Assembly (NCBI GenBank): GCA_937934305.1
Contig: CALHAG010000002.1
Span: 142,192 to 206,191, forward strand
Origin: Candidatus Caldarchaeum subterraneum
GTDB taxonomy: Archaea > Thermoproteota > Nitrososphaeria_A > Caldarchaeales > Caldarchaeaceae
Reading direction: 5' to 3'
DNA: 64,000 bases
Program-made: the position numbers and the translations under genes
Notes under the pieces: generated by a model
The model's database searches: none
The model's input: the letters and a program-made list of their open reading frames with translations, nothing else
Told to the model about the DNA's origin: nothing
Shown: positions 44,902 through 62,425 of the stretch, piece by piece
Numbering within the stretch: position 1 is the stretch's first letter
Layout of the letters: each line of letters opens with the position of its first letter

Positions 44902-45232
44902 TCCTCCTCGGCTCCCTCCTCTTTCTCCGCCTAGCTAGGGCAAGCATGCTGGCAAACAGGGTGGCTAAGGGCAAAGTGACCACGAGCATCGAAGGGTTGA
45001 CAACAGCCGTAGCCATCGCCGTGAAGACGATGATGTAGAAAACAGACTTGGCCGATAGAATCCCTTTGCCAACCTCGTCAGCACCCTGCTCTTCTCCATG
45101 TTTCCTCCGTGGAGGAGCTCTTGTCTGGGCTTCATGATAATCAGGCTCATATGCCGGCGGCTGCGATGCCATGCTCTCGTAAATCCTCTGGTTGATAATG
45201 TATTCATCCAAATAGCTGTCATCAGATGACAT
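44885..45232 (-). CDS. Small membrane protein, hypothetical
   Basis: 115 aa with one central TM (VFYIIVFTAMATAVV). Overlaps both neighbours by 11-17 nt. Confidence 0.3.
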   Translation of the reverse strand: MSSDDSYLDEYIINQRIYESMASQPPAYEPDYHEAQTRAPPRRKHGEEQGADEVGKGILSAKSVFYIIVFTAMATAVVNPSMLVVTLPLATLFASMLALARRRKRREPRRIGHEF

Positions 45233-47387
45233 ATTGCTTCATCTCCTCGAAATGCTTCAGCAATAGAATTCCGGGAATAGTCTTCTTATACCTCGTTCCA
45301 TCCATCCAAACTAGGCCATACTTGATGTAGTCATGAATGGAGGACTTGTCTTTCCAATTGCGGCAGAACCTGACAGCCACCGATGTGGGCAGTTTTCTAA
45401 GAATCTCGGCAGCCTCCTTGTTGATGGTTCTCTTTATCGCTAACTCTTTAGCGGCTATAACGTTGGACAGAAGCTCAAACTCCTCCGGGTCAAATTCTTG
45501 TGTATCGGTTTTTCTAGTCTCCTGCTTCTCTTCTACAGGTTCTTCTCCCGTGTTCGTTGCCTTGACTAAAGTCCTCTCCTTTGTCTCCTTTTCCTGTTTC
45601 TTCTTTTCAACATGTTTTCCGAGACAGCGACCATCGCTGGTCAGCACTCTGCCGCATTCGCTGCATGGCTTCGGCAGCCCGGGAGCCTTGTCTCCGCCAA
45701 GTTTCTCCCTCCGCATTTTGAAGATATAGCCATCCACGATGATTCTGGCCGGGTCTTGCCGGGACAGTGTCCTTATCCTCGCCGGCGTGACGAACCTGAT
45801 GTATGCCTCGCCTATCCCCAGCTCTGTTATCACGCGTCTGATGCTCTCGGGCGAGGTTTGGGAAAGAACCCACACATCCTCTGGAGAGGAGGTGTTGAAC
45901 ACGACCCACCGGTAGCAGGACTGTCTAATTCCGTCGGCTATGTCCGACAGCCTCTGCGTGACAAGAATCAACGCGACGGCGTAGCTTCTAGCGGTTCTGG
46001 CTATGTCTTCGAGCTTGCTACGGCTCCCCGAGTCCCTGCCGCCTCTGAGCTGGATAGGCTTGGTGACTAGGTACGCCTCGTCTATGACGACCACGACAGG
46101 CTTTTCTCTAGTGAAAGCCAGCGGCCCACGTTTCAGCATCATCTTGGCAAGCTTCCTAAGCAGGAACTCTAGGACTATTGCTCTGGTTTTCTCGTTCACA
46201 TCAGCCATGTTGAGCACCACGAGAGAGGGGCCATCCGCCGCAAACAATGGGCTATAGAGGTCGGAGACGCCGTAGGCATCTGTTTTAAAGACCGTCTTCA
46301 GGTCATACATCTTGTCGTAGATGCCTTCTATGGCGTCTTTGGTCTGCGGCCCATACTTCAGCTTCCCCTCCATTATTTCCCTCTCCACCTTCTCCAGTTT
46401 ATCCATCAGGTTTTCATACGTCAACTCGATGTTGGCGTGGCGCAGCTCGGCGTAGGCCACTCTGATGAAGTGAGCCTGCTTAGAGCCAACCTCCTCCAGA
46501 ACAGATATGCTGTCCATGAGGTCCTCAACCATCTGAGGCTCCGTCTCCCCCTCAAGGGCCTTGAACGGGTCTATGCCCGTGTGTGAGACCATGTAAATAG
46601 CCGCTCTCCCGTCGTCCACGTATCCGAGCTTGTAAAACGCTTCGGTGAAGTCGCCTTTGACATCGAAGAGCAAAACCTTGTAGCTCCCCATTAGCTGGGT
46701 GACTAGGCTAAACACTGTAGTTGTCTTGCCCGCCCCGCTCGCGCCAGCTATTATCATGTGCGGGTTGAACTCCCGCTCGCTCACGACCGGGGAATACCTC
46801 AGCTCTATGTTTCCGGGAATGGTGCGTACGAGGATATGGGTCTTGAGCTGAGCATCTTCATTGGTTTCGCGGTAGGGCTGCTCAACCATTCTCACGCTTT
46901 TGGAGACGGTGCCGAGGACGGCTGAGGACTCCTTGTTACCGGTTTCGACGTCTCTTCTAACCCTTCTGATTGTTGATGCCTGCTCAGCCACCGCGACTAT
47001 CGACGCTATGGTCGTCACCATCGGTATCGAGGGGAGGTTGGCTAGGACGATTGTGAAGGCTTTATGATATTCGAGCTGGGCGAAAACGGCTGCGATAACT
47101 AGGTCCAGCACAAGGCTTAGTATGAAGTAGTAGGCGCCCAAGCTCTTGGCGGCATACGCTATCGGAGCCGCGATGGAGGCGGGTCCCGAGCCTATCGGCC
47201 CCCAAGCCATCAAAGCCAGCATGATGGCGAAAAACACTCTGCCGACAATGAGTGCGCGAAGGCTCTTGACGGGCTTTATCTCAGGCGCGTTGCCTTCCCT
47301 AACCATGTAAAGGAATATGAAGGCTAGGATGTAGTTTAGGGCAAGGGCCGATGCTCCTAGGAAAGTTATCTCCATGTCACCATACAC
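45222..47387 (-). CDS. Membrane-anchored HerA/FtsK/VirD4-like P-loop ATPase with a C-terminal zinc ribbon
   Basis: N-terminal ~150-aa polytopic region. Walker A is MIIAGASGAGKTTTVFSL. Walker B is PVVVVIDEAYLV. C-terminal CSECGRVLTSDGRC. Confidence 0.6.
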   Translation of the reverse strand: MYGDMEITFLGASALALNYILAFIFLYMVREGNAPEIKPVKSLRALIVGRVFFAIMLALMAWGPIGSGPASIAAPIAYAAKSLGAYYFILSLVLDLVIAAVFAQLEYHKAFTIVLANLPSIPMVTTIASIVAVAEQASTIRRVRRDVETGNKESSAVLGTVSKSVRMVEQPYRETNEDAQLKTHILVRTIPGNIELRYSPVVSEREFNPHMIIAGASGAGKTTTVFSLVTQLMGSYKVLLFDVKGDFTEAFYKLGYVDDGRAAIYMVSHTGIDPFKALEGETEPQMVEDLMDSISVLEEVGSKQAHFIRVAYAELRHANIELTYENLMDKLEKVEREIMEGKLKYGPQTKDAIEGIYDKMYDLKTVFKTDAYGVSDLYSPLFAADGPSLVVLNMADVNEKTRAIVLEFLLRKLAKMMLKRGPLAFTREKPVVVVIDEAYLVTKPIQLRGGRDSGSRSKLEDIARTARSYAVALILVTQRLSDIADGIRQSCYRWVVFNTSSPEDVWVLSQTSPESIRRVITELGIGEAYIRFVTPARIRTLSRQDPARIIVDGYIFKMRREKLGGDKAPGLPKPCSECGRVLTSDGRCLGKHVEKKKQEKETKERTLVKATNTGEEPVEEKQETRKTDTQEFDPEEFELLSNVIAAKELAIKRTINKEAAEILRKLPTSVAVRFCRNWKDKSSIHDYIKYGLVWMDGTRYKKTIPGILLLKHFEEMKQYVI

Positions 47388-47901
47388 CTCTTCTCAAGAC
47401 ATACACCATGCTGCTGACCATTGCGCTGAAGCTGGTCACGGCGACGAAGGTCCACAGCCTGCTCTCCACGTTGAAAACCCGCTCCACAACGTCTCCATGG
47501 CTGGTCTCCATCCTCACTATGAACGTGGCCCTCGGGTAGGAGAATATGCGCCAAGAGGTTTCAGCGACACCTGATTCATCTGTGGAAACCTCTATAGATT
47601 CTCTAAACTCGGCATACTGTATCCTCAGCCTAGTGTTCGCAACGGGTCTGCAGACCGATGCATCCATTATTGTTGTCCCGTTGTCGAGAACCTTCCAGCA
47701 CCTCCCCCCGCTTCCAACCAGGTCTTCCACAACCAGTATCCGGAAAGTATATGGCCATAGGAAGTGAGCCTCCTGGGTTCTGTCGAAGAAGATTACGACC
47801 TTGGTGGGGTTGAAGCCGTCGGTGTTTTCATCGCCTATAGCCAGTGGCGCGGCCAGAGCCAGCAGCGCCAGAGACAATAGAAGAAGGTTAAGCGGTTTCA
47901 T
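47377..47901 (-). CDS. Secreted hypothetical protein
   Basis: Signal MKPLNLLLLSLALLALAAPLAIG. 174 aa. Embedded between the two ATPase genes. Confidence 0.35.
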   Translation of the reverse strand: MKPLNLLLLSLALLALAAPLAIGDENTDGFNPTKVVIFFDRTQEAHFLWPYTFRILVVEDLVGSGGRCWKVLDNGTTIMDASVCRPVANTRLRIQYAEFRESIEVSTDESGVAETSWRIFSYPRATFIVRMETSHGDVVERVFNVESRLWTFVAVTSFSAMVSSMVYVLRRGVW

Positions 47902-50683
47902 ACAGCATCTCCCTCCTGCTCATCCTCCTGCTCACCAGGGCCCTCTTGTCAGGCTCTATGCGGAAGAACAGCGGCCTGGGGTCGACGCTCCACTTGAGGA
48001 AGGCCTCGCCTGTCCCGAAGCCCTCCAGCCTCCTCCTCTCCTCGTCTGTCAGGTTAAGCAGCCTCTGGGCGTTCAGGGCCTCGCCCGGGTTACCGTAGCC
48101 GAAGGCAATCGTTGTGGAAACGAGTGCCGCCACGGTCGGGACACCTCTTCTCTTAGCCATGTCAGCCTCCTGAAGCAGGTCGTCGAGCAGATGCGTTATC
48201 ATGACGTAGCTGGTGCCGAACTTTCTCTCCTCCCTGAGGTGGGTACCGAGAGGGACTTCGCCGGCTTTTCCCAGCAAGAACTTGTGGCCCTCGTCGATTA
48301 TCACCATAAGCCTCACACCCTCCTTAACCTCTTGGCTGAGCATGTAATCATGTATGTGCTCGAGAATGCTCCAAGTGATTAGCCTCTGCATGTCGTCGCT
48401 CATACGCACCTGCCCGCCGCCAGACTGGGCGCGGAAACTCACTATCACGACACCTCCCTCCACCAGCAAATCCTTCAACATCACATCGGTCCTATCAAGC
48501 GCGAAAGCGCCCTCCGCATAGGGCCTCAGCCTCCTCTCTAGGTCAAGCAGCAGCGTTACGGCTGCGTCGAGCTCAGGCGAGCCTCCCCGCGAGATAACCA
48601 GCTTCTCAGCCTCTCTTCTCCTCCACGCAACATATGCATAGAGCTGGGCCATAGTACATTTAGACAGGTTCTCATCCCTCCATGTGGAGGGGTCTGAGTC
48701 ATCAACTCCGCCTATCCTCTTGTACATCAGCTTAAGCCCTTGGTAGAGTATGCTGGATTGGGTGGGCTGAAGCGGTATAGCATTGGGCAAAACCGCGTCC
48801 ACGAATCTGCTTATCCTCTGCTCGGGCGCTAGGCCTGAGAGAAGCAACGGGTTGTATTTCTTGTTGCAGAGGTCTACGACGGTGACCTTCAAGCCCATGG
48901 AGCGGAGCTCGTCAGCCTCGGCGGCGTATTCTCCGGCCGGGTCTATTATGATGACGGCGGGAGGCTTCCCCGTGCCAGAGTATTTGCTGAGGCCATCTAT
49001 CCTGAAGAGCAGCGTCTTTATCAGGGTGGACTTGCCGGTGCCGGGCGAGCCTAGCACAAGCATATGCGGGTTATGCAGCATCGACGGGTTCCAGTACACA
49101 GGCCTGCCATACTCGTCTCTGCCGAGGTATACGCCGTCCTTGGGCATTATTGGCCGGCGTCTGAAAGCCAGCGGGCTGACGGCCACGAAGTCCCTCGTCA
49201 ACGCTTTGACAACCGGTATCGGGTTGGGGTCGAAGACGGCTCTACGCGGCTGAGGAAGGTACATGAACCTGTGGCACAGCGCCGCTCCCCAGCCGTCTCC
49301 AACCACCTTTGTCGTGAAATTCATTGTGTCGAGGAGGCTGCGGGCCTCGTGAAGCTCCTTATCCAGCTTATCCAACTCTCTCCAGGAAACGTCTCCCGAG
49401 GCTCTAGCCCTAACCTCTACAACAAGGCTCATCAGGTAGGGCCTCTCCCCATGAGTTATTCTATCCGCCACATTCATGCTGCGGCCCGCTTTCAAGTAGC
49501 CGGACACGGCGCCGCCGACCTGAGCATCCATGCCGTACAGGTCAGCCCTTGCCATGGCGAGCTTGATTGTGTCGCCCACGGGCTGGGGAACTATGTGGAG
49601 AACAACCCTGAAGTCTTTGAGGGTGTAGATGAGGTTGTTGAAAGATGCGAGATACATGGCCAGCCTCCGCTCAATGTCTTCGGATGACAGGTCTCTGTTG
49701 TTGTTTCCAGTGACGGATAGATACTTCGATGCAATGGTCTCGCCATTGACGCGTCTAACCAATACGCCGTCCTCAAGGATGGAGTATTCCCCGCCTCCAA
49801 GGCTCCAGTGGGTATGTCTACCGGACAGCTTGCAGGTGGCTTTGGATACGCTGTTCGCCGCCCTGACGGTTAGTAGGAGGCCGATTATCCCGCTGATGAG
49901 GATTGTTGTCCCCAGTATTCCCAGCCCCGTGCTGAGCATTGATGTAAACAATGTCGCAAACGATGCGCTGCCGAGGATTATCACATGGTGCTTGGAGGGC
50001 TTGTAGGCGGCCTCGTCGCTGACGGCTATTTGATGACCCATGTATGACGCGTCGTCTATCACAACCGTTCCAATGCCTTCCATGCTTGTTGCAAGCGTTT
50101 TAGCAGCGGCCTCGACAGCGTGTACAGCGCCCTCCTCATCGCCCTCAACCACCTCGGAGTAGAGAACTATGTACGCGTATTCTCCTTGAGGCGACCTATC
50201 GATGATAAGCTTCGCCTCAACGTCGGCGAGGCCCTCTACAGCCTTCACCATTCTATCTAGTAGAAGCATCCTCTCATGCGCCGTCGTTGTTTCATAGTTT
50301 TTCTGCACGTCGGCTATCTTCAGCATCTTGACGGCGTAGCCTCTGCGCCTCCTCCTATCCTCGAAGAGCAGGGTTACTTCGCCGGGTTTTCTGGGGCCCT
50401 CGAAGAGCCTTATCTTGGTGGGCACACGCAGAGAATATGGGATATCAGGTGCGACGGCGAACCAGAAAGCCGTGGATGGAACGTTTTTCCTAAGGTATCC
50501 GACGGCGGCTGGATAGCTTCTCCTAGCGGCCAGCAGGGCTAGAAACACCGCCGGAAACAGGATAGCCATGTAGGGGGTATACGGAGCCAGTTGAGGGCTT
50601 AAGCCTATTATAGCTAATGTAACCAGTATAAGCCCGCCGAAGAAAAGCGGCCCGATGCCCAGAACCTTAGCAAGAACCCCCAT
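47888..50683 (-). CDS. VirB4/TrbE/CedB-like conjugation-type ATPase with N-terminal TM helices
   Basis: Walker A HMLVLGSPGTGKSTLIKTLL in the C-terminal half. Walker B is RLMVIIDEGHKFL. N-terminal hydrophobic helices. 931 aa. Confidence 0.65.
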   Translation of the reverse strand: MGVLAKVLGIGPLFFGGLILVTLAIIGLSPQLAPYTPYMAILFPAVFLALLAARRSYPAAVGYLRKNVPSTAFWFAVAPDIPYSLRVPTKIRLFEGPRKPGEVTLLFEDRRRRRGYAVKMLKIADVQKNYETTTAHERMLLLDRMVKAVEGLADVEAKLIIDRSPQGEYAYIVLYSEVVEGDEEGAVHAVEAAAKTLATSMEGIGTVVIDDASYMGHQIAVSDEAAYKPSKHHVIILGSASFATLFTSMLSTGLGILGTTILISGIIGLLLTVRAANSVSKATCKLSGRHTHWSLGGGEYSILEDGVLVRRVNGETIASKYLSVTGNNNRDLSSEDIERRLAMYLASFNNLIYTLKDFRVVLHIVPQPVGDTIKLAMARADLYGMDAQVGGAVSGYLKAGRSMNVADRITHGERPYLMSLVVEVRARASGDVSWRELDKLDKELHEARSLLDTMNFTTKVVGDGWGAALCHRFMYLPQPRRAVFDPNPIPVVKALTRDFVAVSPLAFRRRPIMPKDGVYLGRDEYGRPVYWNPSMLHNPHMLVLGSPGTGKSTLIKTLLFRIDGLSKYSGTGKPPAVIIIDPAGEYAAEADELRSMGLKVTVVDLCNKKYNPLLLSGLAPEQRISRFVDAVLPNAIPLQPTQSSILYQGLKLMYKRIGGVDDSDPSTWRDENLSKCTMAQLYAYVAWRRREAEKLVISRGGSPELDAAVTLLLDLERRLRPYAEGAFALDRTDVMLKDLLVEGGVVIVSFRAQSGGGQVRMSDDMQRLITWSILEHIHDYMLSQEVKEGVRLMVIIDEGHKFLLGKAGEVPLGTHLREERKFGTSYVMITHLLDDLLQEADMAKRRGVPTVAALVSTTIAFGYGNPGEALNAQRLLNLTDEERRRLEGFGTGEAFLKWSVDPRPLFFRIEPDKRALVSRRMSRREMLYETA

Positions 50684-55848: not shown

Positions 55849-56373
55849 TCAACTTGGCACGTCCCAGGGACCGCCTATAGGTATAGACGAGCCCTGCCCT
55901 GACGCTGCCACAGCCACGTCGGCTGCGAATTTTATGATGTAGAGGCCCAGCGCGGTCAGCCCGCCGACTATCAGCGCGCTGTCAATCAGTTGTCCGGCGC
56001 CCTCCTTGGTCCTGTGAGACCCTAGAGGCAGGAACTTTATCGCTATCCCCGCGCCCAGCAGAGCCATCGCAATCAGCAGGAGAAGCTGCTGAAACCCTTG
56101 CAACGGCTCCCTAATCAAGTTTGCAACCCCTCCCGCGCCCGCTGCGTGAACCGTCTGAGACGCCAGAGCCGTCGCCGCCAGTTGCACAGCCGTCAATGCC
56201 GCAGGCCTGAGCCGTGCCAACACCTTTCCCATTCTCCAAGCCTTGTGGGTTTTCATGGTCGCTTCGAGACCGTCTCCGAACATGATAATAGATAAACTTT
56301 TGGTGGCAAACCTGAACGAGAACTGAACGAAAGTTGAACGTAAGTTGAACGAGGAGAAACTATTTTCGGTCAA
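55849..56373 (-). CDS. VirB2/TrbC/CedA1-like pilin candidate; the probable true start is the ATG at 56256
   Basis: From the internal Met: MKTHKAWRMGKVLARLRPAALTAVQLAATALA (signal-like), then two hydrophobic helices separated by a short charged loop (GSHRTKEGAG). The annotated N-terminal 39 aa read through the promoter/repeat region. Confidence 0.4.
   Translation of the reverse strand: MTENSFSSFNLRSTFVQFSFRFATKSLSIIMFGDGLEATMKTHKAWRMGKVLARLRPAALTAVQLAATALASQTVHAAGAGGVANLIREPLQGFQQLLLLIAMALLGAGIAIKFLPLGSHRTKEGAGQLIDSALIVGGLTALGLYIIKFAADVAVAASGQGSSIPIGGPWDVPS
56282..56300 (-). promoter_or_regulatory. Candidate TATA-like promoter for the 15-gene minus-strand array
   Basis: The minus strand reads AAAAGTTTATCTATTATCATG ~27-45 nt upstream of the ATG at 56256. 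It lies immediately next to the TGAACG array. Confidence 0.3.
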
Positions 56374-56481
56374 GGTATCTGTGAAGTGGCTGAATTTTGG
56401 CGAATTAGGCTGACCATAATTACTCGGCCGTCGTTCAATTCTCGTTCAGTTTACGTTCAACTTTGCCACCAAAAATTTATA
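56295..56481. repeat. ~55-bp inverted repeat (arms 56295-56354 and 56428-56481) carrying TGAACG boxes at exact 11-bp phasing
   Basis: Left arm TTTTGGTGGCAAACCTGAACGAGAACTGAACGAAAGTTGAACGTAAGTTGAACG has TGAACG at 56313, 56324, 56335 and 56346. Right arm CGTTCAATTCTCGTTCAGTTTACGTTCAACTTTGCCACCAAAAA has CGTTCA at 56432, 56443 and 56454. A third direct copy of the right arm is at 56880-56934. Confidence 0.7.
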
Positions 56482-56635
56482 TAGGGTTCTTCATGATGTC
56501 AACTAGGCTATTTAAAGGTAAATGGTTAATGCCATGTAAAAAATCGGCTTATTTCGCCATAACTCGCCAATCCAGAAGAAATGGTGGAAGAGACGGAAAA
56601 AGCCCAGTTTTAGTGGATTGACGTAATGCAAGCTC

Positions 56636-56760
56636 GTTTTTGACAATATTTGGTCAACCCCCATCCGTGGAGAGGCGAAATTTCCGGGAATTAGGGCGGA
56701 TTATATGTTGACCGAAATTAGTCAGAGTTTGGTATTACGCCCCGTTTCTAGAGCCTAGAG
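56636..56760. repeat. Copy of the composite palindrome-containing repeat unit (degenerate palindrome TTGACAATATTTGGTCAA)
   Basis: TTGACAATATTTGGTCAACCCCCATCCGTGGAGAGGCGAAATTTCCGGGAATTAGGGCGGATTATATGTTGACCGAAATTAGTCAGAG. Confidence 0.6.
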
Positions 56761-56879
56761 AGGATGAGTTTCGGGTCTTTAAGTCTACGGATTCCGCAAA
56801 ACAGACAAATATTAAGACATTTGACGAAAAAATGGATATGATGAGTGATGGTTTTAGACGGTGACCGAAATTACTCAGC

Positions 56880-56934
56880 CGTCGTTCAAATCACGTTCAA
56901 TTCTCGTTCAAGTTTGCCACCAAAAATTTATAAG
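56880..56934. repeat. Direct repeat of the right arm (CGTTCA x3 at 11-bp phasing + TTTGCCACCAAAAATTTATA)
   Basis: ~90% identical to 56428-56481. CGTTCA at 56882, 56893 and 56904. Confidence 0.65.
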
Positions 56935-56989
56935 CCATCAGTTTTGAGACAGTCCCAGACCAAGCCCTTAACCGAGGGGTTTGGTCCCA

Positions 56990-57410
56990 TAAACCCTACG
57001 TGAAATACCGATGAGGCCCTGTTGCGGCAGGGCTGAGCTGGAGAGGCGCATGCGGAGCGTCCCGTGACGGGGTTCGTCAGATACCTCGTCACCCGAGGGC
57101 TGGGAGCCGGCATGCCTGGCCCAAGGCCCCGGACACTCACGTAGGGTGTGCCGAAGCCGGCGATGCATAGGTGCTGCGGACGCTTGGTAGAGGGGCACCC
57201 CCGCCACCGAAGCGACCAACGGACCCACAAGGCTTGGAGGTGGATGCAGGGATGCCCCATAGGGAGGAGAATAAGCCTCCTTATAGGGCTTCCCACCCTC
57301 TCCAACGCCTACGAGAAGAGCTACCGGTGACTATAAGGGGTACTAACGGGACTGGTGACATGCGGTGTCCGGTGACCTATGTAGGTCTCCGAAGTGACTA
57401 AGGGGCAGGC
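56990..57410. ncRNA. GC-rich hairpin-dense non-coding segment (candidate structured RNA of unknown class)
   Basis: No coherent ORF; the tracks show only Arg/Pro-rich spurious frames. There are many local hairpins (GCCCTGttgcggCAGGGC, CCCGtgaCGGG, GGCATGCC). A 10-bp perfect inverted repeat CCCTACGTGA (56993) / TCACGTAGGG (57141) closes a ~140-nt domain. I compared it to RNase P and SRP RNA motifs and the resemblance was partial and inconsistent. Confidence 0.25.
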
Positions 57411-57490
57411 TTAGGGGTTGGATAGATTATCCAAGAGGGCTCTAAGGAGACGGCTGAGGTGTTGGATAGATTATCCAAGGGGGTTGGATG
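57408..57490. repeat. Three copies of the palindrome TTGGATAGATTATCCAA spaced 44 and 22 bp apart (iteron/operator-like)
   Basis: Copies at 57408-57424, 57452-57468 and 57474-57490 (the third is TTGGATGGATTATCCAA). Each is flanked by G-runs. The spacings are multiples of 11 bp. Confidence 0.7.
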
Positions 57491-57916
57491 GATTATCCAA
57501 GGGGCTGGCTACGACAACTTGGGGGTGGCTAAGGGGTTGGTAACAAGAATTGTTCTAACCCATTAGAACCCTCTACCATGCGTGTAATGGGCTTCCGCGC
57601 CCGGGCTGACCATGCGCCCAAAAGGCCTCCGAAAAGGGAAATCCCCGGAACCGCAGCAGGGGAGAAGAGGCCGAAGACATGGCAACAGACCCGGGACAAG
57701 GGGGAGAACGGTTGGCTGACTCTCCCCGCCATCCCGGAGCCCACTCCCGGGAAACTCTTCCCGGCAACGCCCGTTCACGCGGGCGGGGGGCTCAACAACA
57801 CATGCCCCCCGAAGATGCCAGAAGAAAGGCCGGGATGGGCTCCGGCCATCGACGACAGGCGGGGGGAGAACTCCCCGGTGGCCCGCCGGGGAGGAGGTGA
57901 AAAGAATGAAGAGGAG

Positions 57917-58165
57917 TTGTTAGCACTCATAAACGGTGGCGCCATTGGGTCACAAATTGCTTCTGCTATACGCGAGATTGTGATGCTGGTGTTCGAAATC
58001 TTGACGCCGATTGTCAACATCCTAGGTGTCGCCATGATTGCGATAGGACTGTTGATTGCATTGGGATTGAGACAAGAGTTTTTGGGGTTCCGCTTGGTAA
58101 TTGGTGGAGCCTTAGCACTGGCCACAGTCCACTTGATTGTACCGCTACTGCTTACATACATCTGA
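57917..58165 (+). CDS. Small two-helix membrane protein (VirB2/CedA1-like pilin-like); uncertain start (TTG 57917 or ATG 57983)
   Basis: ...MLVFEILTPIVNILGVAMIAIGLLIALGLRQEFLGFRLVIGGALALATVHLIVPLLLTYI has two hydrophobic helices around a short charged loop. A GGAGGAGGTGA Shine-Dalgarno-like run sits upstream of the TTG. The long annotated N-terminus (57578 onward) is low-complexity and probably not translated. Confidence 0.3.
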   Translation: MLALINGGAIGSQIASAIREIVMLVFEILTPIVNILGVAMIAIGLLIALGLRQEFLGFRLVIGGALALATVHLIVPLLLTYI

Positions 58166-58599
58166 CGACTTCGATTGACCAACCCAACCCCCCTCCTTTT
58201 TTTCCATGGAGGCTTTCTCCCCCCTCTCTCTTTTCCTCTTTCCCCGCCCGCGAGGGCGGAGCCTCTTTGACTCCCCGAGTCCGGGAGGCGCCGCCCTTGT
58301 GGGGGAGAGGGGCGGAAGCCTCCCGGCGGGAGGGGATGGCGAGCGAGTTCCAACGCATCTGGGGGAACGAGACTAACTATATCCGCGCCCAGAGACGTCA
58401 CCGCCGCGGTGAACGCGGCGATGGGGAGTGGATGGAGTTAGTCTCGTTCCTACTAAACCAGCTTTTCTGAGTTTCTGAGCTGGCTGCTCAACGCCAGCCA
58501 GCCAAACACCCCTAATTTTTTTCCCTTGTCAAATAACTTCTACGCCTGAAACATGGCGTCCACCCCGTTTAATGATTGTGGGGTGGCGGGGGTGGTTGG

Positions 58600-58870
58600 C
58601 TGGCTCGCGCCTGGCTCCATGCGCATGTGCTGGAGCTGCGTAGTCCTTGCGCATGTGCGGGTCTATGCATCCTGCGCCCTATACACCGGCCATCCCCGCA
58701 GGGTCTTGCGCATGTGCAGGCCCTGTGATGAGCTCGCGCATGAGCGGCTCCGGTGTATGGGGGGCCTGCTCGCGTATGTGCGGCGGGCGCGGCCACTTGC
58801 GCATGTGCAGTGGCTGCCGCAGGCAGGCGCTTGAGGCGGGTGACAGGTGTGTCTCCTGCGCCATGTGTCT
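58600..58870. repeat. Cluster of seven GCGCATGTGC-like 10-mers arranged as three doublets (27-28 bp within a doublet)
   Basis: Copies at 58621, 58649, 58708, 58736 (GCGCATGAGC), 58772 (GCGTATGTGC) and 58799, plus a weaker one at 58858. All three forward frames and several reverse frames are open, which is typical of a GC-rich non-coding repeat. Confidence 0.55.
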
Positions 58871-59596
58871 GCCGGACTTGCCCGTGAGCGGTCCGCATAC
58901 ATGTGGGGAGCCTTCCTGCCCGTGCGCGGTTGGCTCCAGCGGGAGACACCCAAGCAGACGACATACAGACGATGTTCAGAGGTTGTTCAGATGCTCCGCC
59001 AGAGGAGTTCAGGAGCCATCTTATCCGTGGGAGAGGCATGGTGTCTCTTCCATGGGTTTACTCTATCAGGGCGCCATGGAGGCGTTTTGATGGAGAGGCT
59101 CCTAGCCCTGTTGGCGGAGACAGGTGAACAATGGTTTACTGATGTTTCGAGGATTGACACTGGTTCTATGGATTAAGCAACCGATTCAATAACACCTTGG
59201 AGATACAGGGGTTCATGGTATTCTGATGAGCATCAGATGATATGTGGCTGAAAAGGTCCGATGATTCTAGATATCTACGATGGTCTCAACAGGTCTCTAA
59301 TAAACGCCGACAAAAACAGGTCAAGAAACATCGACGACACTTAGCACCTCCCTCGGCGGGCCATACCTCGGGAACAGGGGCTGGGAGGATGCGGAGACTC
59401 TCCCGGGCCGCATAGGCCCGCCTCCCCACAAAAACACGGGGAGGTGAAAAAGAAATGAGGTCTGTATCCTCCTTCCCCTGGATCCCGGGGGTAAGGTCGC
59501 CCACTGGGCATTTGACCAGGGACCGCCTGCGGCCTGTGTTCCCGAGGGCCGTGGGCGGACTCTGCCCATCGGGGAGAGGAAGAGAGGTGTAGAGCG

Positions 59597-59787: not shown

Positions 59788-61216
59788 ATGTGGGCTAGAG
59801 TTTTTGTGACACTGATAATCATCTTTGGCTTCATGGCTTACGCCTATGTTGCCGCGCTGAATGCTGCCACCCAACTATACAACAGAGGTATACTGAAGAC
59901 CCCACCACCTGCTTTAATCAACGTTGCGGATTTGACATGGGGGTCTATCATGGTGGTTTCAGCGATAGTCGTCATCACGCTAATCATCTCATTAGCGATG
60001 GCTATCTCTAGGTCACGGCGGTTGCTCGGAATAATCCCCGTCAACGATTTCCGAAGACACCTGCTGCTACTCGGACCCACTGGGTCCGGGAAAACAAACG
60101 CAGCCAAGAAGGCTATATCGCTGGCTATCCGCAGAGGTGTCAAGGTCATCGTCATCGACTGGAAAGCCCTCTCCTCCCCGCCAATATTTTTACATCTCTC
60201 ACGGGACGTCTGTAGAGTCGCATGGTGGAGCTGGGAGGGCCCAGAGAGGTGAATACGTTAACTTCGTCAAGGGAGCCACCGTTATCCGGAAGGTGAATCC
60301 GTGGGACAACGGAGGCTACACAGCGCGTCAGAGAGCTGTAATCGCTGTCGAAATGCTACGAGAAATCACCAGAGACATCGCTGACGTTTCTTCAGCATCT
60401 TCCGCAGTTCTCCTCCGAGAATTAATCAAGCTCTACGGAAAGGGGGTTCCGAAGAGCTCCGATGTCGTCAACAGGCTCGAGGAATTTTTCAGGACGGCGA
60501 TGATGGAGAGGCGTCTCGCAGAGGCTAACATGGCAGCGGCTTTGCTGCGGAGGCTGCAGTGGCTTGTCATCGATGAACAAAGAACAACAAAAAACGTCAT
60601 GGGTTCTGACGCCATTGTTATCTATGACCTATCAGAAATCCACAGCGTTTACTTGAAAACGTTATATGCGTTGACAGTGTTTCACAAAAACTACTACGAA
60701 GCTATGAGAGAGGGGTTGACAAACAGGCTGACGACTCTTCTGGTGGCCGAGGAATGCCAGAACTATGTCCACCCTCGACGTTTCGATGAACCACCCTCTC
60801 TTGGTGAGAGGGTGGTCAACGAGCTCAGAGGTTATGGCGTAGGAGTTCTGATGATATCGCCCGACCCGCTACAGATACCGATTCATTTACCACGTGATGT
60901 TGGCGCTGTGGCTTGCTTCGGAGCGCAGGCAGTTCCCGACTTCATCAGAGACATGCTGAGGGTGCTTCCACGTCAGCCAAAGATGGGAGAAGCCATCGTC
61001 TACCACAACGGCAGAATCAAGACAGCTAGGCCTCCGAAGAGGCCTCCTAAGACAATAGACCTGAAGACTGAGACAAAGGAGGTGATTGAAGAGGCTAAGC
61101 CTGAGGAGGCTGTCGAAACTCCTGCTACAATTCAACAACCTCAGGCGGAGGATGCTCAGACAAACCCGATAGAGCAGGAAGAGCCTTTGGAGGAGGCCCA
61201 GAGAGGCTCGAAATAG
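59788..61216 (+). pseudogene. Frameshifted membrane-anchored VirD4/TraG/HerA-like P-loop ATPase (two overlapping ORFs, 59788-60252 and 60137-61216)
   Basis: ORF 1 has two N-terminal TM helices plus Walker A LLLLGPTGSGKTNAAKK and then VKVIVIDWKA. ORF 2 (+1 frame) continues with a Walker B-like TLLVAEECQNYVHP. The frames overlap at 60137-60252 and there is a TATTTTT run at ~60190-60198. Confidence 0.5.
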
Positions 61217-61469: not shown

Positions 61470-62021
61470 GTGGAGGAAGAGGGGGCCCTACGATGCGTCA
61501 GATGTCATGCCTCGGTATCTCTGACCGAGGCGCCGACATTGGCGGAGATGCGATGTAGTAACGATGACAGCAAGAACAATGAGGTGTTGAAGTGTCAAGC
61601 CTGCAGAAGGCCGGCCACTCAAAAGCTTCCGCTAATTAACTTCAAGGGGGAGTTCGAGGACTTCAATGCATGCGATGCCTGCTCTAATGACTACCTTAGA
61701 CTGTTACGTCAGGGGCCTTCCCTTGGTCATGGCAAGGGAAGACTACCGCCAGACAGCTACTACTTCGACTCTCTCCGAACCGTTTTCCAGAGGCTTGGCG
61801 GGGTTTTCCCATGTCCTGCTTGCGATGAATTCTTCGACGACTTGCACTCTGTGGTCAAACATTTCTATGATAAACACCACGACAAACCACGGTCATTAGA
61901 GATGGACATTGATGGGGTGCCGGTCCTGAGGACATGGCAGTACATCTGGTGCAAGAGGTGTTTGAAGTGGTTCGAGAACGAACGTCACTTCCGCTCCCAC
62001 ATCAGAGAGCACATGGGGTGA
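61470..62021 (+). CDS. C2H2-type zinc-finger protein (plus N-terminal CxxC pairs)
   Basis: CPACDEFFDDLHSVVKHFYDKHH and CKRCLKWFENERHFRSHIREH. N-terminal CVRCH...CQACRRP. Confidence 0.5.
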   Translation: MEEEGALRCVRCHASVSLTEAPTLAEMRCSNDDSKNNEVLKCQACRRPATQKLPLINFKGEFEDFNACDACSNDYLRLLRQGPSLGHGKGRLPPDSYYFDSLRTVFQRLGGVFPCPACDEFFDDLHSVVKHFYDKHHDKPRSLEMDIDGVPVLRTWQYIWCKRCLKWFENERHFRSHIREHMG

Positions 62022-62425
62022 AGTCATTGAAGTTCAGCGGCAAAGTTTACGTGGACGGTAGAGGGCGACTCAAGATAGTCTTCAACAAACCCGTCCCACG
62101 TGGGAGGGCGACCCTGATACTGACGAAGGTGGACGGTAAAACCGCTGAAATCCGATTCGATACAACCATTACCAATAACGACTTTAAGAGACTCAAATGC
62201 AAAATTCCACCGTTCCCGGGGCTGAGGCCCGGGGCGGTGGTCGAGGGGTTCATCGAAGACGAGCTAAGATGCCGATGGTGCGGAGCCAAGTGCTCCGCGC
62301 TTATCAACAACCTCTGCGACCATTGTTTCGAGGTATTCTACAGCCCCTACAAACCCCTTCTCTATGAAGGGTTGGGGATGGCTGACGTAGACCATCGGCC
62401 AAAAACCCCAACCTCCGGGCGGTGA
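61934..62425 (+). CDS. Hypothetical protein; overlaps the 3' end of the zinc-finger gene in another frame, so the start is uncertain
   Basis: 163-aa ORF with a CRWCGAKCSALINNLCDHC Cys cluster. Possibly a programmed or accidental frame change relative to the upstream gene. Confidence 0.25.
   Translation: MAVHLVQEVFEVVRERTSLPLPHQRAHGVKSLKFSGKVYVDGRGRLKIVFNKPVPRGRATLILTKVDGKTAEIRFDTTITNNDFKRLKCKIPPFPGLRPGAVVEGFIEDELRCRWCGAKCSALINNLCDHCFEVFYSPYKPLLYEGLGMADVDHRPKTPTSGR

What the first reader, a model, noticed from the sequence alone, without database searches (positions are those of the whole stretch)
56990..57410. GC-rich, hairpin-dense ~400-nt non-coding segment closed by a 10-bp inverted repeat
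There is no credible ORF here, only Arg/Pro-rich frames on both strands. CCCTACGTGA (56993) pairs with TCACGTAGGG (57141) around a domain full of local stems. Composition is sharply more GC-rich than the flanking AT-rich repeats.

I looked for RNase P CR-I/CR-IV/CR-V and SRP helix-8 motifs. I found only partial, strand-inconsistent matches, for example GUGUCCGGGGCC and AUCGGUAUUUCAC on the minus strand, and AGGGUG...GGUGCUGCGGA...GUAGAGGGGCACC on the plus strand. Its identity is therefore open.

It could be a novel structured RNA, or the RNA component of a mobile element.
Basis: seen in the sequence. Interest (0 to 1): 0.5.

Follow-up and report, generated by a model that had tools for sequence, protein, structure and literature searches.

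The report
Structured RNA leader copying pilin mRNA
The GC-rich segment is the core of a previously undescribed, evolutionarily conserved folded RNA element in the conjugation module of a mobile element of hot-spring archaea (Candidatus Caldarchaeum), and it carries a co-evolving copy of the first ~30 bases of the neighbouring pilin-like gene's messenger RNA, which points to RNA-based control of DNA-transfer genes.

Summary
Window 56955-57410 is non-coding, 62% GC, folds better than shuffles and has no Rfam match. The inverted repeat is real (11 bp, 56993-57003 / 57137-57147), but it closes only the first ~155 nt.

Homologous elements sit at the same place in more than 10 sequence lineages of Ca. 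Caldarchaeum contigs. That place is between a candidate VirB2-type pilin gene and a small membrane-protein gene of a VirB4/VirD4-type transfer module.

- **Closing stem:** its sequence differs in every lineage, yet it is paired in 72 of 72 cells.
- **Inner helices:** they covary, and G.U pairs favour the + strand.
- **K-turn-like signature:** C-NNU-GA-R-hairpin-N-GA-G is invariant in one subfamily.
- **Promoter:** the element lies about 25 nt downstream of a promoter module that copies the lineage-specific pilin promoter.

In 7 lineages the element holds a 23-33-nt copy of its own pilin mRNA 5' end. The copy co-evolves with the pilin gene, and its start codon is destroyed in 6 of the 7.

Best reading: a novel structured 5' leader or non-coding RNA that links expression of the two divergent transfer operons, possibly through an antisense RNA. 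Transcription and function are untested.

The parts
55849..56256 (-). 135-aa membrane protein gene, a candidate VirB2/TrbC-type pilin. Its mRNA 5' end is the sequence copied inside the element.
   Evidence: It has 46 homologs, all from Caldarchaeum or Nitrososphaerota. The Pfam TrbC match is weak: E = 0.29 here, and 3 of 8 homologs match with best E = 0.0098. The model shows a signal-like helix plus two long helices, with pLDDT 67. There is no PDB match by sequence or fold. The pilin label is therefore an inference from architecture and gene order.
56234..56266 (-). The first ~33 nt of the pilin-like mRNA (CGAAGCGACC-AUG-AAAACCCACAAGGCUUGGAG). This is the original of the copy at 57208-57239.
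   Evidence: (I8, I14). The 5' boundary coincides with the start site predicted about 26 nt downstream of the TATA box (inference).
56289..56340 (-). Promoter module of the pilin-like gene: three CGTTCA operator repeats followed by TTTGCCACCAAAAGTTTATCTA (BRE/TATA-like).
   Evidence: (I1, I2).
56432..56483 (+). Second copy of the same promoter module (P2). It points rightward into an AT-rich stretch with no ORF (56500-56860).
   Evidence: D2: 71 nt, 87% identical to the third copy. The transcript is unknown.
56883..56936 (+). Third copy of the promoter module (P3), with TATA at about 56927-56932. The predicted start site is about 56955, immediately upstream of the element.
   Evidence: In every lineage the element's promoter copies the lineage-specific pilin promoter.
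56958..56986 (+). 5' hairpin P0 (GACCAAGCCC-UUAACCGA-GGGGUUUGGUC). The loop motif GCCCUUAACC is shared with lineage C.
56993..57147 (+). Domain 1, closed by stem P1 (56993-57003 / 57137-57147). It contains:
- a K-turn-like C-GAU-GA-G (57009-57015);
- P2 (57016-57033) followed by UGAG (57034-57037);
- P3 (57045-57061), with conserved loop UGCGGA;
- P4 (57065-57091);
- P5 (57097-57122), with loop GCCGGCAUG.
   Evidence: P1 is paired in 72 of 72 cells, with 7 of 9 pairs changed on both sides across 8 lineages. Inner helices: 54-55 predicted pairs, of which 8-11 show both-side changes. The K-turn-like signature is present in 13 of 13 type I sequences.
57150..57207 (+). Linker region with three conserved features: hairpin P6 GCCG-AAGC-CGGC (57150-57161), the motif GCAUAGG (57165-57171) and the motif GGGGCACCCCC (57192-57202).
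57208..57239 (+). Same-sense copy ('mimic') of the pilin-like mRNA 5' end, with the start codon destroyed (ATGAAA replaced by AACGG).
   Evidence: 28 of 33 positions match and there is an exact 17-mer, with only two copies in the window. Equivalent own-lineage copies occur in lineages B, I, G, F, J and K.
57249..57294 (+). Hairpin H (GGGAUGCCCC-AUAGG...CUUAUAGGG-CUUCCC). On the minus strand it reads GGGAAGCCCTATAAGG, which looks like a BRE/TATA promoter, 38-45 nt from the copy.
   Evidence: The motif is conserved in lineages A, C, G and K, and is AT-rich in B, I, F and J. A promoter role is inference only.
57295..57410 (+). 3' part of the flagged segment. In the minimum-free-energy fold, 57293-57310 (CCACCCUCUCCAACGCCU) pairs with the 3' half of the copy. 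The rest is poorly conserved between lineages.
57418..57569 (.). Three palindromes TTGGATAGATTATCCAA (57418-57434, 57462-57478, 57484-57500) and the palindrome GTTCTAACCCATTAGAAC (57552-57569). These are probably protein-binding DNA sites lying between the two RNA domains.
   Evidence: Related palindromes occur in lineages B, G, F, I and J.
57589..57905 (+). Second conserved structured domain of the same untranslated region. It has a long-range helix CUCUCCCCGCC / GGCGGGGGGAG that encloses hairpins, and it ends at the Shine-Dalgarno-like GGAGGAGGUG.
   Evidence: In 7 lineages there are 59 predicted pairs, 10 of them with both-side changes, and many G.U / G-C alternations in the + sense. blastn conservation across lineages is shown.
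57917..58165 (+). 82-aa two-helix membrane protein gene, the first gene downstream of the leader.
   Evidence: The homologous start in L001 is ATGATG at the equivalent place.

Best explanation
**What it is.** Window ~56955-57410 is the 5' domain of a long (~0.96 kb), highly structured, untranslated RNA made from the + strand. It sits in an integrative-conjugative-element-like module of Candidatus Caldarchaeum.

**Shown:**
- The element is non-coding.
- It is conserved in position and architecture in more than 10 lineages.
- Its helices are maintained by compensatory changes.
- It lies just downstream of a promoter module that is a paralogue of the lineage-specific promoter of the divergently oriented pilin-like gene.
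- It contains a lineage-specific copy of the first 23-33 nt of that gene's mRNA, and this copy co-evolves with the gene.

**Inferred:**
- The RNA is co-induced with the pilin-like gene by the same operator-binding factor.
- It runs on, with no terminator, through a second conserved domain (57589-57905) into the rightward transfer operon.
- Its K-turn-like motif recruits L7Ae.
- The copied segment couples the two divergent operons post-transcriptionally.

**Most likely coupling.** An RNA complementary to the copy, transcribed from the minus strand out of the TATA-like motif in hairpin H, would pair perfectly with the leader. It would pair with the 5' end of the pilin-like mRNA through G.U wobbles. 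This would be an antisense (FinP-like) brake on pilin translation and on the leader.

**My confidence by step:**

| Step | Confidence |
|---|---|
| Conserved structured RNA element | ~0.85 |
| + strand leader of the operon | ~0.6 |
| Regulatory link to the pilin-like mRNA by base pairing | ~0.35 |
For: **Position and family.** The neighbouring 1365-aa protein has homologs only in Caldarchaeum or Nitrososphaerota. Loci fetched through it and through the pilin-like protein all carry an element between the pilin-like gene and the small membrane-protein gene.

**Structure.**
- P1: 72 of 72 cells are paired, 25 cells show both-side changes, and 0 of 500 shuffles reach this.
- Lineages A/B: 54 predicted pairs, 8 compensatory.
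- Lineages A/B/I: 55 predicted pairs, 11 compensatory.
- The P2 and P3 stems differ between lineages while their loops are conserved.

**Strand.**
- Wobble pairs occur in the + sense.
- The alignment fold is -74.4 kcal/mol on + against -63.1 on -.
- The + strand folds better in 10 of 12 lineages.

**Promoter.** The operator and TATA modules differ between lineages but match within each lineage.

**No terminator.** There is no run of four or more T on the + strand between the predicted start and the downstream gene in the window.

**Copy of the mRNA 5' end.**
- Own-lineage scores of 53-80 stand against cross-lineage scores of at most ~40.
- Differences between related lineages (B vs I, F vs J) are mirrored in both the gene and the copy.
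- The ATG is destroyed in 6 of 7 lineages by different mutations.

**Direction of pairing.** Of 8 flanked single-base differences, 7 are pilin T to copy C or pilin G to copy A. In the promoter copies the same types make up 16 of 62 (Fisher one-sided p = 0.0013).

**No known family.**
Against: - **No expression data.** The promoter, the start site and the antisense promoter are all predictions from sequence.
- **Post hoc test.** The wobble-direction test was devised after the pattern was seen. It rests on 8 substitutions, and strand-biased deamination could contribute.
- **No direct pairing signal.** The + strand RNA shows no own-lineage complementarity to the pilin-like mRNA.
- **Exceptions to the copy.**
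  - Lineage C has only a degenerate copy.
  - The type II lineages (D, E, H) have none.
  - Lineage J keeps the ATG.
  - L035 has a mismatched gene/copy pair.
- **Possible break in the transcript.** Protein-binding-like palindromes lie between the two RNA domains. Lineage E has an extra TATA-like box before domain B, so the two domains might be separate transcripts.
- **DNA hairpins not excluded.** Compensatory changes would also preserve hairpins in single-stranded DNA.
- **Pilin label unproven.**
Confidence: 0.55

Rival explanations
1. The functional product is a discrete non-coding RNA rather than an mRNA leader. It could be the + strand domain processed out of the transcript, for example as an L7Ae-containing RNP scaffold of unknown role in DNA transfer. 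Or it could be mainly the minus-strand RNA, whose 5' part is complementary to the pilin-like mRNA.
For: - Domain 1 starts 8-40 nt after the predicted start site and is closed by a terminal-type stem.
- A K-turn-like motif is present.
- DNA palindromes, and in lineage E a further TATA-like box, separate it from domain B.
- The substitution direction favours a partner encoded on the minus strand.
- A BRE/TATA-like motif lies on the minus strand 38-45 nt from the copy in 8 lineages.
Against: - No terminator-like T run follows the element on the + strand.
- In lineage D, domain 1 and domain B are contiguous.
- Wobble pairs and fold energies favour the + strand for the conserved helices.
Confidence: 0.2
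2. It is a DNA-level element of the conjugation machinery. Examples would be an origin of transfer, or a single-strand initiation or single-strand-promoter element (Frpo/ssi-like), whose hairpins form in transferred single-stranded DNA.
For: - It lies in the intergenic region between divergent transfer operons of a conjugative module.
- Almost all of its covariation is Watson-Crick.
- Iteron-like palindromes are adjacent.
Against: - A multi-branched 150-450-nt architecture with conserved loops and junctions, and a K-turn-like motif, is not typical of an oriT.
- A canonical promoter sits directly upstream in every lineage.
- Loss of the AUG in the copy points to selection at the RNA or translation level.
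- Archaeal ICEs and Sulfolobus plasmids lack recognisable relaxases and may transfer double-stranded DNA (PMC6563490).
Confidence: 0.1
3. The pilin 5' segment (56234-56266) and its inverted copy (57208-57239) are the recombination sites of an invertible ~0.95-kb promoter switch (fimS-like phase variation). Inversion would join the pilin-like gene body to a start-less leader.
For: - Inverted repeats flank a segment that holds all three promoters.
- The repeats are kept alike within each lineage.
- The copy lacks the ATG, which would give an OFF state.
Against: - All 11 contigs that carry a copy have the same orientation.
- No recombinase was found among about 30 window ORFs scanned.
- The centre of the repeat differs while its flanks match, the opposite of what site-specific recombinases need.
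- It explains neither the transition bias nor the conserved RNA-like architecture.
Confidence: 0.07
4. It is a functionless remnant: a duplicated pilin promoter plus gene 5' end, kept similar by gene conversion, into which GC-rich sequence has drifted.
For: - The promoter and the first 33-50 nt of the gene are duplicated in inverted orientation.
- Weaker similarity extends to 43-52 nt in lineages B, F, J and K.
Against: - The architecture is conserved across lineages whose flanking proteins are only 47-55% identical.
- The compensatory changes and the invariant junction motifs are not expected of a decaying remnant.
Confidence: 0.05

Closest known systems
FinP antisense RNA / traJ mRNA fertility control of F-like plasmids (with allele-specific FinP-traJ pairs)
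   Same: - An RNA-level brake on transfer genes in a conjugative element.
- Plasmid-lineage-specific sequences that co-vary between regulator and target.
- The target is the 5' end and translation start region of a transfer-gene mRNA.
   Different: - FinP is encoded opposite its target (cis). Here the complementary sequence lies about 1 kb away, inside the leader of the opposite operon.
- Here the start codon itself is left unpaired.
- Here the antisense transcript is hypothetical, and no FinO-like protein is known.
Kink-turn (K-turn) RNAs bound by archaeal L7Ae (box C/D and H/ACA sRNAs, RNase P RNA, the L7Ae mRNA leader)
   Same: - The invariant C-NNU-GA-R ... N-GA-G signature flanks a hairpin. 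This is the tandem G.A / A.G arrangement with a 3-nt bulge.
- The host is an archaeon.
   Different: - The canonical stem on the other side of the bulge is only 1-2 pairs, like a junction.
- There are no box C/D or H/ACA guide features.
- No Rfam family matches.
- Binding has not been tested.
Long structured 5' leaders and riboswitch-like cis-regulators of operons, and ribosomal-protein leaders that mimic the primary RNA target
   Same: - It is an untranslated, covariation-supported structure between a promoter and the first gene.
- A second domain ends at the ribosome-binding site.
- It contains a mimic of another RNA.
   Different: - It is much longer (~0.96 kb).
- No ligand or protein partner is known.
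- The mimic copies an mRNA 5' end whose sequence is lineage-specific, which argues for base pairing rather than protein recognition.
TldR / TnpB-type guide RNAs that repress host flagellin promoters (a structured scaffold followed by a variable guide)
   Same: - Encoded on a mobile element.
- A structured scaffold is followed by a short variable segment that matches the promoter-proximal region of a surface-filament gene.
   Different: - No TnpB, IscB or Cas-like protein is in the module.
- The direction of the substitutions (pilin T to copy C, pilin G to copy A) does not fit the + strand RNA pairing with the gene's template DNA strand.
- The variable segment is internal, not terminal.
fimS-type invertible promoter switches for pilus genes
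   Same: Inverted repeats flank a promoter-bearing segment next to a pilin-like gene.
   Different: - Only one orientation is seen.
- No recombinase was found.
- The repeat centres differ.
Large structured non-coding RNAs of mobile elements (GOLLD, ROOL, HEARO/omega RNA)
   Same: - Several hundred nucleotides long.
- Multi-domain.
- Associated with a mobile element.
- Palindromic loop sequences (GCCGGC, GCAUGC) that could mediate self-association.
   Different: - No sequence or covariance-model similarity.
- Archaeal, and restricted to one clade.
- Oligomerisation is purely speculative.

Membership tests
   There are no hits at gathering score in the window or in 9 homologous loci. At E <= 10 the only hits are sub-threshold sRNA, miRNA and CRISPR-repeat models. 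The single hit inside 56990-57410 (mir-491, 57229-57311 +) scores 16.5 bits against a gathering score of 62, and none is RNase P or SRP.
K-turn (L7Ae-binding kink-turn) | A 3-nt bulge followed by tandem sheared G.A / A.G pairs, with the -1b:-1n pair C-G | tested here: met
   The signature C-NNU-GA-R-[hairpin]-N-GA-G is present in 13 of 13 type I sequences, with a covarying hairpin. It is absent from type II. This is a sequence-level test only.
K-turn (L7Ae-binding kink-turn) | A regular canonical (C) helix of several Watson-Crick pairs on the 5' side of the bulge | tested here: inconclusive
   Only the first pair (C-G) is invariant. The next positions pair in some lineages (G, C, F) and not in others (A, B, I), by inspection of the sequences. 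The motif may be a junction-type K-turn.
K-turn (L7Ae-binding kink-turn) | Binding of L7Ae | not testable with these tools
   Needs a gel-shift assay or a structure.
Antisense fertility control (FinP/traJ-like) | A sequence complementary to the 5' end or translation start region of a transfer-gene mRNA, co-varying with it | tested here: met
   The minus strand of 57208-57239 is complementary to nt 1-33 of the pilin-like mRNA. The same holds in 7 lineages, each with its own sequence. The substitutions keep G.U pairing.
Antisense fertility control (FinP/traJ-like) | A promoter and a transcript on the antisense strand | tested here: inconclusive
   A BRE/TATA-like motif lies on the minus strand in hairpin H, 38-45 nt from the copy. 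There are no expression data.
Antisense fertility control (FinP/traJ-like) | The regulator is encoded opposite its target (cis-antisense) | tested here: not met
   The copy lies about 970 bp from the pilin-like start. It would be cis-antisense only to the leader.
Invertible promoter switch (fimS-type) | Inverted repeats flank a promoter-bearing segment | tested here: met
   The repeats are 56234-56266 and 57208-57239.
Invertible promoter switch (fimS-type) | Both orientations occur in sequence data, and a recombinase gene is nearby | tested here: not met
   All 11 contigs share one orientation. No recombinase domain was found in about 30 ORFs. Raw reads could not be searched.
oriT / single-strand DNA elements of conjugative plasmids | A nick site recognised by a relaxase, and a relaxase gene in the element | not tested
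   No relaxase domain was seen in the ORFs scanned. Archaeal ICEs are reported to lack relaxases (PMC6563490). A nick site cannot be tested with these tools.
cis-regulatory mRNA leader | Lies between a promoter and the first gene on the same strand, with no terminator in between | tested here: met
   The promoter module is at 56883-56936 and the gene starts at 57917. There is no run of four or more T on the + strand. The promoter and start site are predicted, not mapped.
cis-regulatory mRNA leader | An expression platform acting on the ribosome-binding site or on a terminator | tested here: inconclusive
   Domain B ends in a covarying hairpin next to GGAGGAGGUG. No alternative structures were tested.

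The most novel reading that the evidence does not exclude
This would be a new class of large structured RNA specific to archaeal integrative-conjugative elements. It would act as the hub of an antisense fertility-control circuit.

- The + strand RNA would be an L7Ae-bound, K-turn-containing scaffold that heads the transfer operon.
- It embeds a co-evolving copy of the pilin mRNA 5' end.
- The opposite strand would produce an RNA that silences both the pilin mRNA (through wobble-tolerant pairing) and the leader.

If so, it would be the first RNA-based regulator of conjugation described in archaea. Its lineage-specific sequences would work as specificity or incompatibility determinants.
Probability: 0.22. 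Interest if true: 0.8.

Novelty: new variant of a known kind. Interest (0 to 1): 0.65.

Why it matters
Almost nothing is known about how archaeal conjugative elements and Ced/Ted-type DNA-transfer systems are regulated. As far as I know, and in the two papers consulted (PMC9905601, PMC6563490), no RNA regulator has been described for them.

This element offers several things:
- **A new RNA family.** It is covariation-supported, 0.4-1 kb long, and absent from Rfam.
- **A defined position.** It always sits in the transfer module of Caldarchaeum elements.
- **A ready-made hypothesis.** A co-evolving copy of an mRNA 5' end is an unusual feature. It suggests base-pairing control of a pilus gene.
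- **Insight into module exchange.** The lineage-specific operator, promoter and copy form one module, which may explain how such modules are exchanged as units (L027) or become decoupled (L035).
- **A candidate for RNA structural biology.** It is a large thermophile RNA with a K-turn-like motif and palindromic loops.

If it turns out to be only a long leader with no trans function, it is still a useful annotation, but of modest interest.

Tried and rejected
- **Rfam:** searched at gathering and permissive thresholds on the window and on homologous loci. Nothing was found.
- **tRNA/tmRNA scan:** none.
- **blastn:** 56300-58200 against phage and plasmid collections gave no match. Two scans of viral contigs (a DNA pattern, and the pilin-like protein) found nothing.
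- **Coding potential:** rejected.
- **Direct pairing:** the idea that the + strand RNA pairs with the pilin-like mRNA was tested with an RNAduplex own-versus-cross matrix. It showed no own-lineage advantage. A consistent internal 'anti-copy' partner was not found across lineages.
- **Covariance model:** a model built from two lineages found only L026, L015 and L023 beyond its training sequences. It was too narrow to align all lineages, so helices were compared by anchored search and by MAFFT/RNAalifold. MAFFT misaligned P3 and P4 of lineage G.
- **Pilin identity:** Pfam gave only weak hits. PDB sequence search found nothing relevant. Two AlphaFold models had pLDDT 62 and 67. A Foldseek search of the PDB found nothing.
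- **Invertible-switch idea:** the orientation of all contigs was checked and a recombinase was sought. Neither supports it.
- **Other ideas considered and rejected:**
  - Hammerhead-like reading of CGAUGAG: there is no GAAA core and no Rfam hit.
  - Retron, DGR or group II intron: no reverse transcriptase is nearby.
  - CRISPR: there is no repeat array.
- **Bacterial-type scan:** the sigma-70 promoter and intrinsic-terminator scan is not informative for an archaeon.
Full report
**1. The observation**

The region was read directly.

*Inverted repeat.* It is real and 11 bp long: ACCCTACGTGA at 56993-57003 pairs with TCACGTAGGGT at 57137-57147 (I16). It encloses about 133 nt.

*Composition.*

| Interval | GC |
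|---|---|
| 56300-56950 (promoter and repeat region, left) | 41% |
| 56990-57410 (flagged segment) | 62.2% |
| 57411-57575 (palindrome region, right) | 48.5% |
| 57576-57916 | 66% |
| Whole window | 53% |

*Folding.* The + strand of 56930-57420 folds to -227 kcal/mol (z = -3.9). The - strand gives z = -3.2.

*Known families.* Rfam 15 has no hit at gathering score anywhere in the window. Only chance-level hits appear at E <= 10, and only one weak one (mir-491, 16.5 bits) falls inside the segment. There are no tRNAs.

*Coding potential.* The four local ORFs have no Pfam match. Between lineages, translated similarity occurs only in short patches that change frame. The segment is therefore non-coding.

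**2. Context**

The window looks like an archaeal integrative-conjugative element. It holds:
- two HerA/VirB4-like ATPases (47888-50683 and 45222-47387);
- a TraG/VirD4-like ATPase (59788-61216);
- a Hel308-like helicase, a ParB-N protein, and KaiC/RecA-like and MCM-like ATPases;
- defence and type IV pilus genes further left.

The 1365-aa membrane protein next to the region has 18 homologs. All come from Candidatus Caldarchaeum or Nitrososphaerota metagenome bins or from unnamed metagenome contigs. In one homologous locus the 281-aa neighbour carries a faint CedA1 hit. Thaumarchaeal and aigarchaeal ICEs with VirB4, VirD4, VirB6 and ParB-like genes and no relaxase have been described (PMC6563490). 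Ced and Ted systems are T4SS derivatives with VirB2-like pilins (PMC9905601).

The 135-aa gene at 55849-56256 (-) has a signal-like helix and two long hydrophobic helices. Its Pfam TrbC matches are weak. PDB searches found nothing. I call it 'pilin-like', and that label is an inference.

**3. Promoters**

Three copies of one module are present. Each consists of CGTTCA repeats followed by TTTGCCACCAAAA(A/G)TTTAT.
- 56289-56340 (-), upstream of the pilin-like gene.
- 56432-56483 (+).
- 56883-56936 (+) (D2, I1, I2).

The third copy places a predicted start site at about 56955, directly before the GC-rich segment. This assumes the usual ~26-nt distance from the TATA box and is an inference.

**4. 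Relatives**

Loci were fetched through the 1365-aa protein and through the pilin-like protein. Every one that reaches far enough upstream has an element in the same place. I distinguish the following lineages.

| Subfamily | Lineage | Sources |
|---|---|---|
| Type I | A | window, L003 |
| Type I | B | L001, L027 |
| Type I | I | L032 |
| Type I | G | L026 |
| Type I | K | L033 |
| Type I | F | L011, L035 |
| Type I | J | L030, L031 |
| Type I | C | L005, L006, L008, L015, L019, L020, L024 |
| Type II | D | L009, L010 |
| Type II | E | L013, L018, L021 |
| Type II | H | L023 |
| Type II | (unnamed) | L034 |

L001 lies on a 702-kb contig, so that element is chromosomal.

In each lineage the operator sequences differ:
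- A: CGTTCA repeats;
- B and I: GGTCGGCCA;
- G: GTTACGTAAC;
- F and J: TGCTCC-N-GGAGCA;
- C: CGTTGCA or GACGAC;
- D: AGCCGAG-N-CTCGGCT;
- E: ACGCACTCACGTGAGTGCGT.

Within a lineage, however, the pilin promoter and the element's promoter share the same operators and TATA region. This argues that one lineage-specific factor controls both.

**5. Structure**

*Closing stem P1.* An anchored search was used: the 5' arm ends in GA a few nt before C(G/U)(A/G)UGA, and the 3' arm starts with UC. It finds a 9-13-bp stem in every lineage, each with a different sequence. In a mini-alignment of the nine inner pairs from 8 lineages:
- 72 of 72 cells are paired;
- 7 of 9 pairs change on both sides;
- 25 cells show double changes;
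- 0 of 500 shuffles reach the observed values;
- sliding the 3' partner destroys the pairing.

The arms were chosen for complementarity. But they are fixed by conserved flanking motifs, so the result is not a search artefact.

*Inner helices.*
- A versus B: 54 predicted pairs, 8 compensatory.
- A, B and I together: 55 predicted pairs, 11 compensatory.
- The P2 stem covaries: GCCCUG/CAGGGC (A), GCCCCG/CGGGGC (I), GCC/GGC (B, G), GGUGU/ACACC and GGCGU/ACGCC (C).
- The P3 stem covaries: GGCGC/GCGUC (A), GGGGU/ACCUC (I), CCGUC/GACGG (G). Its loop UGCGGA is kept.
- P5 (GGGCUGGG/CCUGGCCC) carries a conserved loop, GCCGGCAUG. A second GCCGGC lies in GAAGCCGGC. Both are present in A, B, I, G and C and both are absent in F, J and K. 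This could mean a tertiary or kissing contact, but that is not testable here.

*K-turn-like motif.* All 13 type I sequences carry C-NNU-GA-R-[P2 hairpin]-N-GA-G. This is the sequence signature of a K-turn. However, the canonical stem beyond the first C-G pair is weak.

*Strand.* Wobble pairs occur in the + sense in P1, P3, P4, P5 and H. The alignment fold is -74.4 kcal/mol on + against -63.1 on -, and the + strand folds better in 10 of 12 lineages. One A.C mismatch in L034 goes the other way.

*Family search.* The covariance model built from A and B finds G (E = 1e-9), a type C copy (E = 0.011) and L023 (E = 0.46). Its only other hits in the window and loci are weak (E >= 0.5) and lie away from the expected position.

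**6. The copy of the mRNA 5' end**

At 57208-57239 the + strand reads CGAAGCGACCAACGGACCCACAAGGCTTGGAG. The pilin-like mRNA starts CGAAGCGACCAUGAAAACCCACAAGGCUUGGAG. So the first ~33 nt of that mRNA, counted from its predicted start site, are repeated in the same sense. Only the start codon region is altered.

The same holds in six other lineages, each with its own sequence.

| Lineage | Pilin-like mRNA | Copy in the element |
|---|---|---|
| B | GAGAAAGCCATGAAGCACCACACCCGGAAA | GAGAAAGCCACGCACCACACCCGGAAA |
| I | GAGGAAGCCATGAAAAACCACATCCGGA | GAGGAAGCCACACCACACCCGGA |
| G | (AT)GAAACCAGGGCTGGACAGGAGCT | GGAACCAGGGCTAGACAGGAGCT |
| F | CACGAGGACAGATGAGCAGCAGGACC | CACGAGGACAGACGAGCAACAGGACC |
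| J | CGAGGACGCATGACCGACAGGACCA | CGAGGACGCATGACC-ACAGGACCA |
| K | CCCCACAAGTACAAAGGTGCTGGGCTGG | CCCCACAAGTACAAAGATGCCAGGCTGG |

Further points:
- Own-lineage similarity scores are 53-80. Scores against unrelated lineages are at most about 40.
- Differences between the related pairs B/I and F/J are mirrored in both the gene and the copy.
- The ATG is removed in 6 of 7 lineages, by different events. Lineage J keeps it.
- The copy always sits between GGGGCAYCCCC and hairpin H.
- Lineage C has only a degenerate version, which is folded into its own hairpin. Type II has none.
- L035 combines an F-type gene with a J-type copy.
- L027 combines a B-type module with an A-like 1329-aa protein. Modules therefore recombine.

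**7. What the copy is for**

*Direct pairing is not supported.* The + strand RNA shows no own-lineage advantage in pairing with the pilin-like mRNA.

*The substitution direction is informative.* Of the single-base differences between gene and copy that are flanked by matches, 7 of 8 are pilin T to copy C or pilin G to copy A. These are exactly the changes that let an RNA complementary to the copy still pair with the pilin-like mRNA through G.U.
- In the duplicated promoters, which serve as an untranscribed control, the same two types make up 16 of 62 differences (Fisher one-sided p = 0.0013).
- A binomial test gives p = 0.0026 against an expectation of 1/3 and p = 0.035 against 1/2.

*What this pattern implies.*
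- It argues against a partner encoded at the pilin locus.
- It argues against the + strand RNA pairing with the gene's template DNA.
- It fits an antisense RNA made from the minus strand of the element.

*A possible antisense promoter.* A BRE/TATA-like motif lies on the minus strand in hairpin H, 38-45 nt from the copy. It reads GGGAAGCCCTATAAGG in A, GGAAAACCCTATAAGG in G, GGTAAACAATATATGG in B, GAGAAAACATATTAGG in I and CCTTTATTAGG in F.

*Caveats.* This chain is inference. The test was devised after the pattern was seen, n is small, and mutational strand bias is an alternative explanation.

**8. The rest of the untranslated region**

No run of four or more T occurs on the + strand between 56955 and 57917.

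After three TTGGATAGATTATCCAA palindromes and one GTTCTAAC...GTTAGAAC palindrome comes a second domain, 57589-57905. It is conserved in all lineages and is structured:
- 59 predicted pairs;
- 10 of them compensatory;
- a long-range helix, CUCUCCCCGCC / GGCGGGGGGAG;
- a 3' end at the Shine-Dalgarno-like GGAGGAGGUG.

In lineage D the two domains are contiguous. The simplest reading is one long leader for the rightward operon. Lineage E has an extra TATA-like box before domain B, so separate transcripts cannot be excluded.

**9. Verdict**

The segment is a real, conserved, structured non-coding element that is not in Rfam. It is most likely an RNA transcribed on the + strand from a pilin-type promoter.

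Its function is unproven. The best-supported idea is post-transcriptional coupling of the two divergent transfer operons through the co-evolving copy of the pilin-like mRNA 5' end, probably by an antisense RNA.

The rivals are:
- a discrete ncRNA or RNP;
- a single-stranded-DNA or oriT-like element;
- an invertible switch;
- a functionless remnant.

The last three are less consistent with the data.

Noticed in passing
window 58600-58870 (within the ORF-poor gap 58166-59596): About seven copies of TTGCGCATGTGC(A/G)GG are spaced roughly 40 nt apart in a 1.4-kb, 60% GC stretch that has only overlapping, repeat-derived ORFs. The array looks like iterons, which would fit a replication origin or a regulator-binding array.
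   Followed up: no
window 57418-57500 and 57552-57569: There are three palindromes TTGGATAGATTATCCAA and one GTTCTAACCCATTAGAAC between the two RNA domains. Related TTGGAT-N5-ATCCAA and TAGAAC palindromes occur in lineages B, G, F, I and J. Lineages E and F instead carry many GGGGTATCC-type repeats. These are probably sites for a conserved DNA-binding protein, for example the ParB-like protein.
   Followed up: partly
window 57589-57905: This is a second conserved structured RNA domain directly upstream of the 82-aa membrane-protein gene. It is more widely conserved than the flagged segment and also has no Rfam match.
   Followed up: partly
window 56432-56483 and 56500-56860: A second rightward copy of the pilin-type promoter (P2) points into an AT-rich stretch of about 360 nt with no plausible ORF. 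That stretch contains repeats (GAGGCGAAATTT..GGCGAATTAGG, TGACCGAAATTA) that are shared with lineages G and K. What it transcribes is unknown.
   Followed up: no
window 59788-61216: The TraG/VirD4-like gene is split into two overlapping ORFs of 154 and 359 aa, whereas L026 has a single 532-aa gene. This is an apparent frameshift, which could be a sequencing error, a pseudogene or programmed.
   Followed up: no
L027 (JAWCDA010000025.1) and L035 (JAWACF010000022.1): These two loci show recombination of the module. L027 has a 1329-aa protein 95% identical to the window's, but its pilin gene, promoters and element are of lineage B. L035 has an F-type pilin 5' end with a J-type copy, a truncated pilin gene and a rearranged gene order.
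   Followed up: partly
all loci, upstream of the pilin-like gene and of the element: Each lineage has its own operator repeats, shared by two to five promoters in the divergent region. This implies fast co-evolving pairs of regulator and operator. The two zinc-finger-rich ORFs at window 61470-62425 are candidate regulators.
   Followed up: no
window 57822-57900 (-): On the minus strand there is a terminator-like hairpin, GGCCGGAGCCCATCCCGGCC followed by TTTCTT. It gives a sub-threshold SorX-like Rfam hit (24.3 bits against a gathering score of 46.6, E = 0.004). This is probably just the mirror image of a hairpin in domain B.
   Followed up: no
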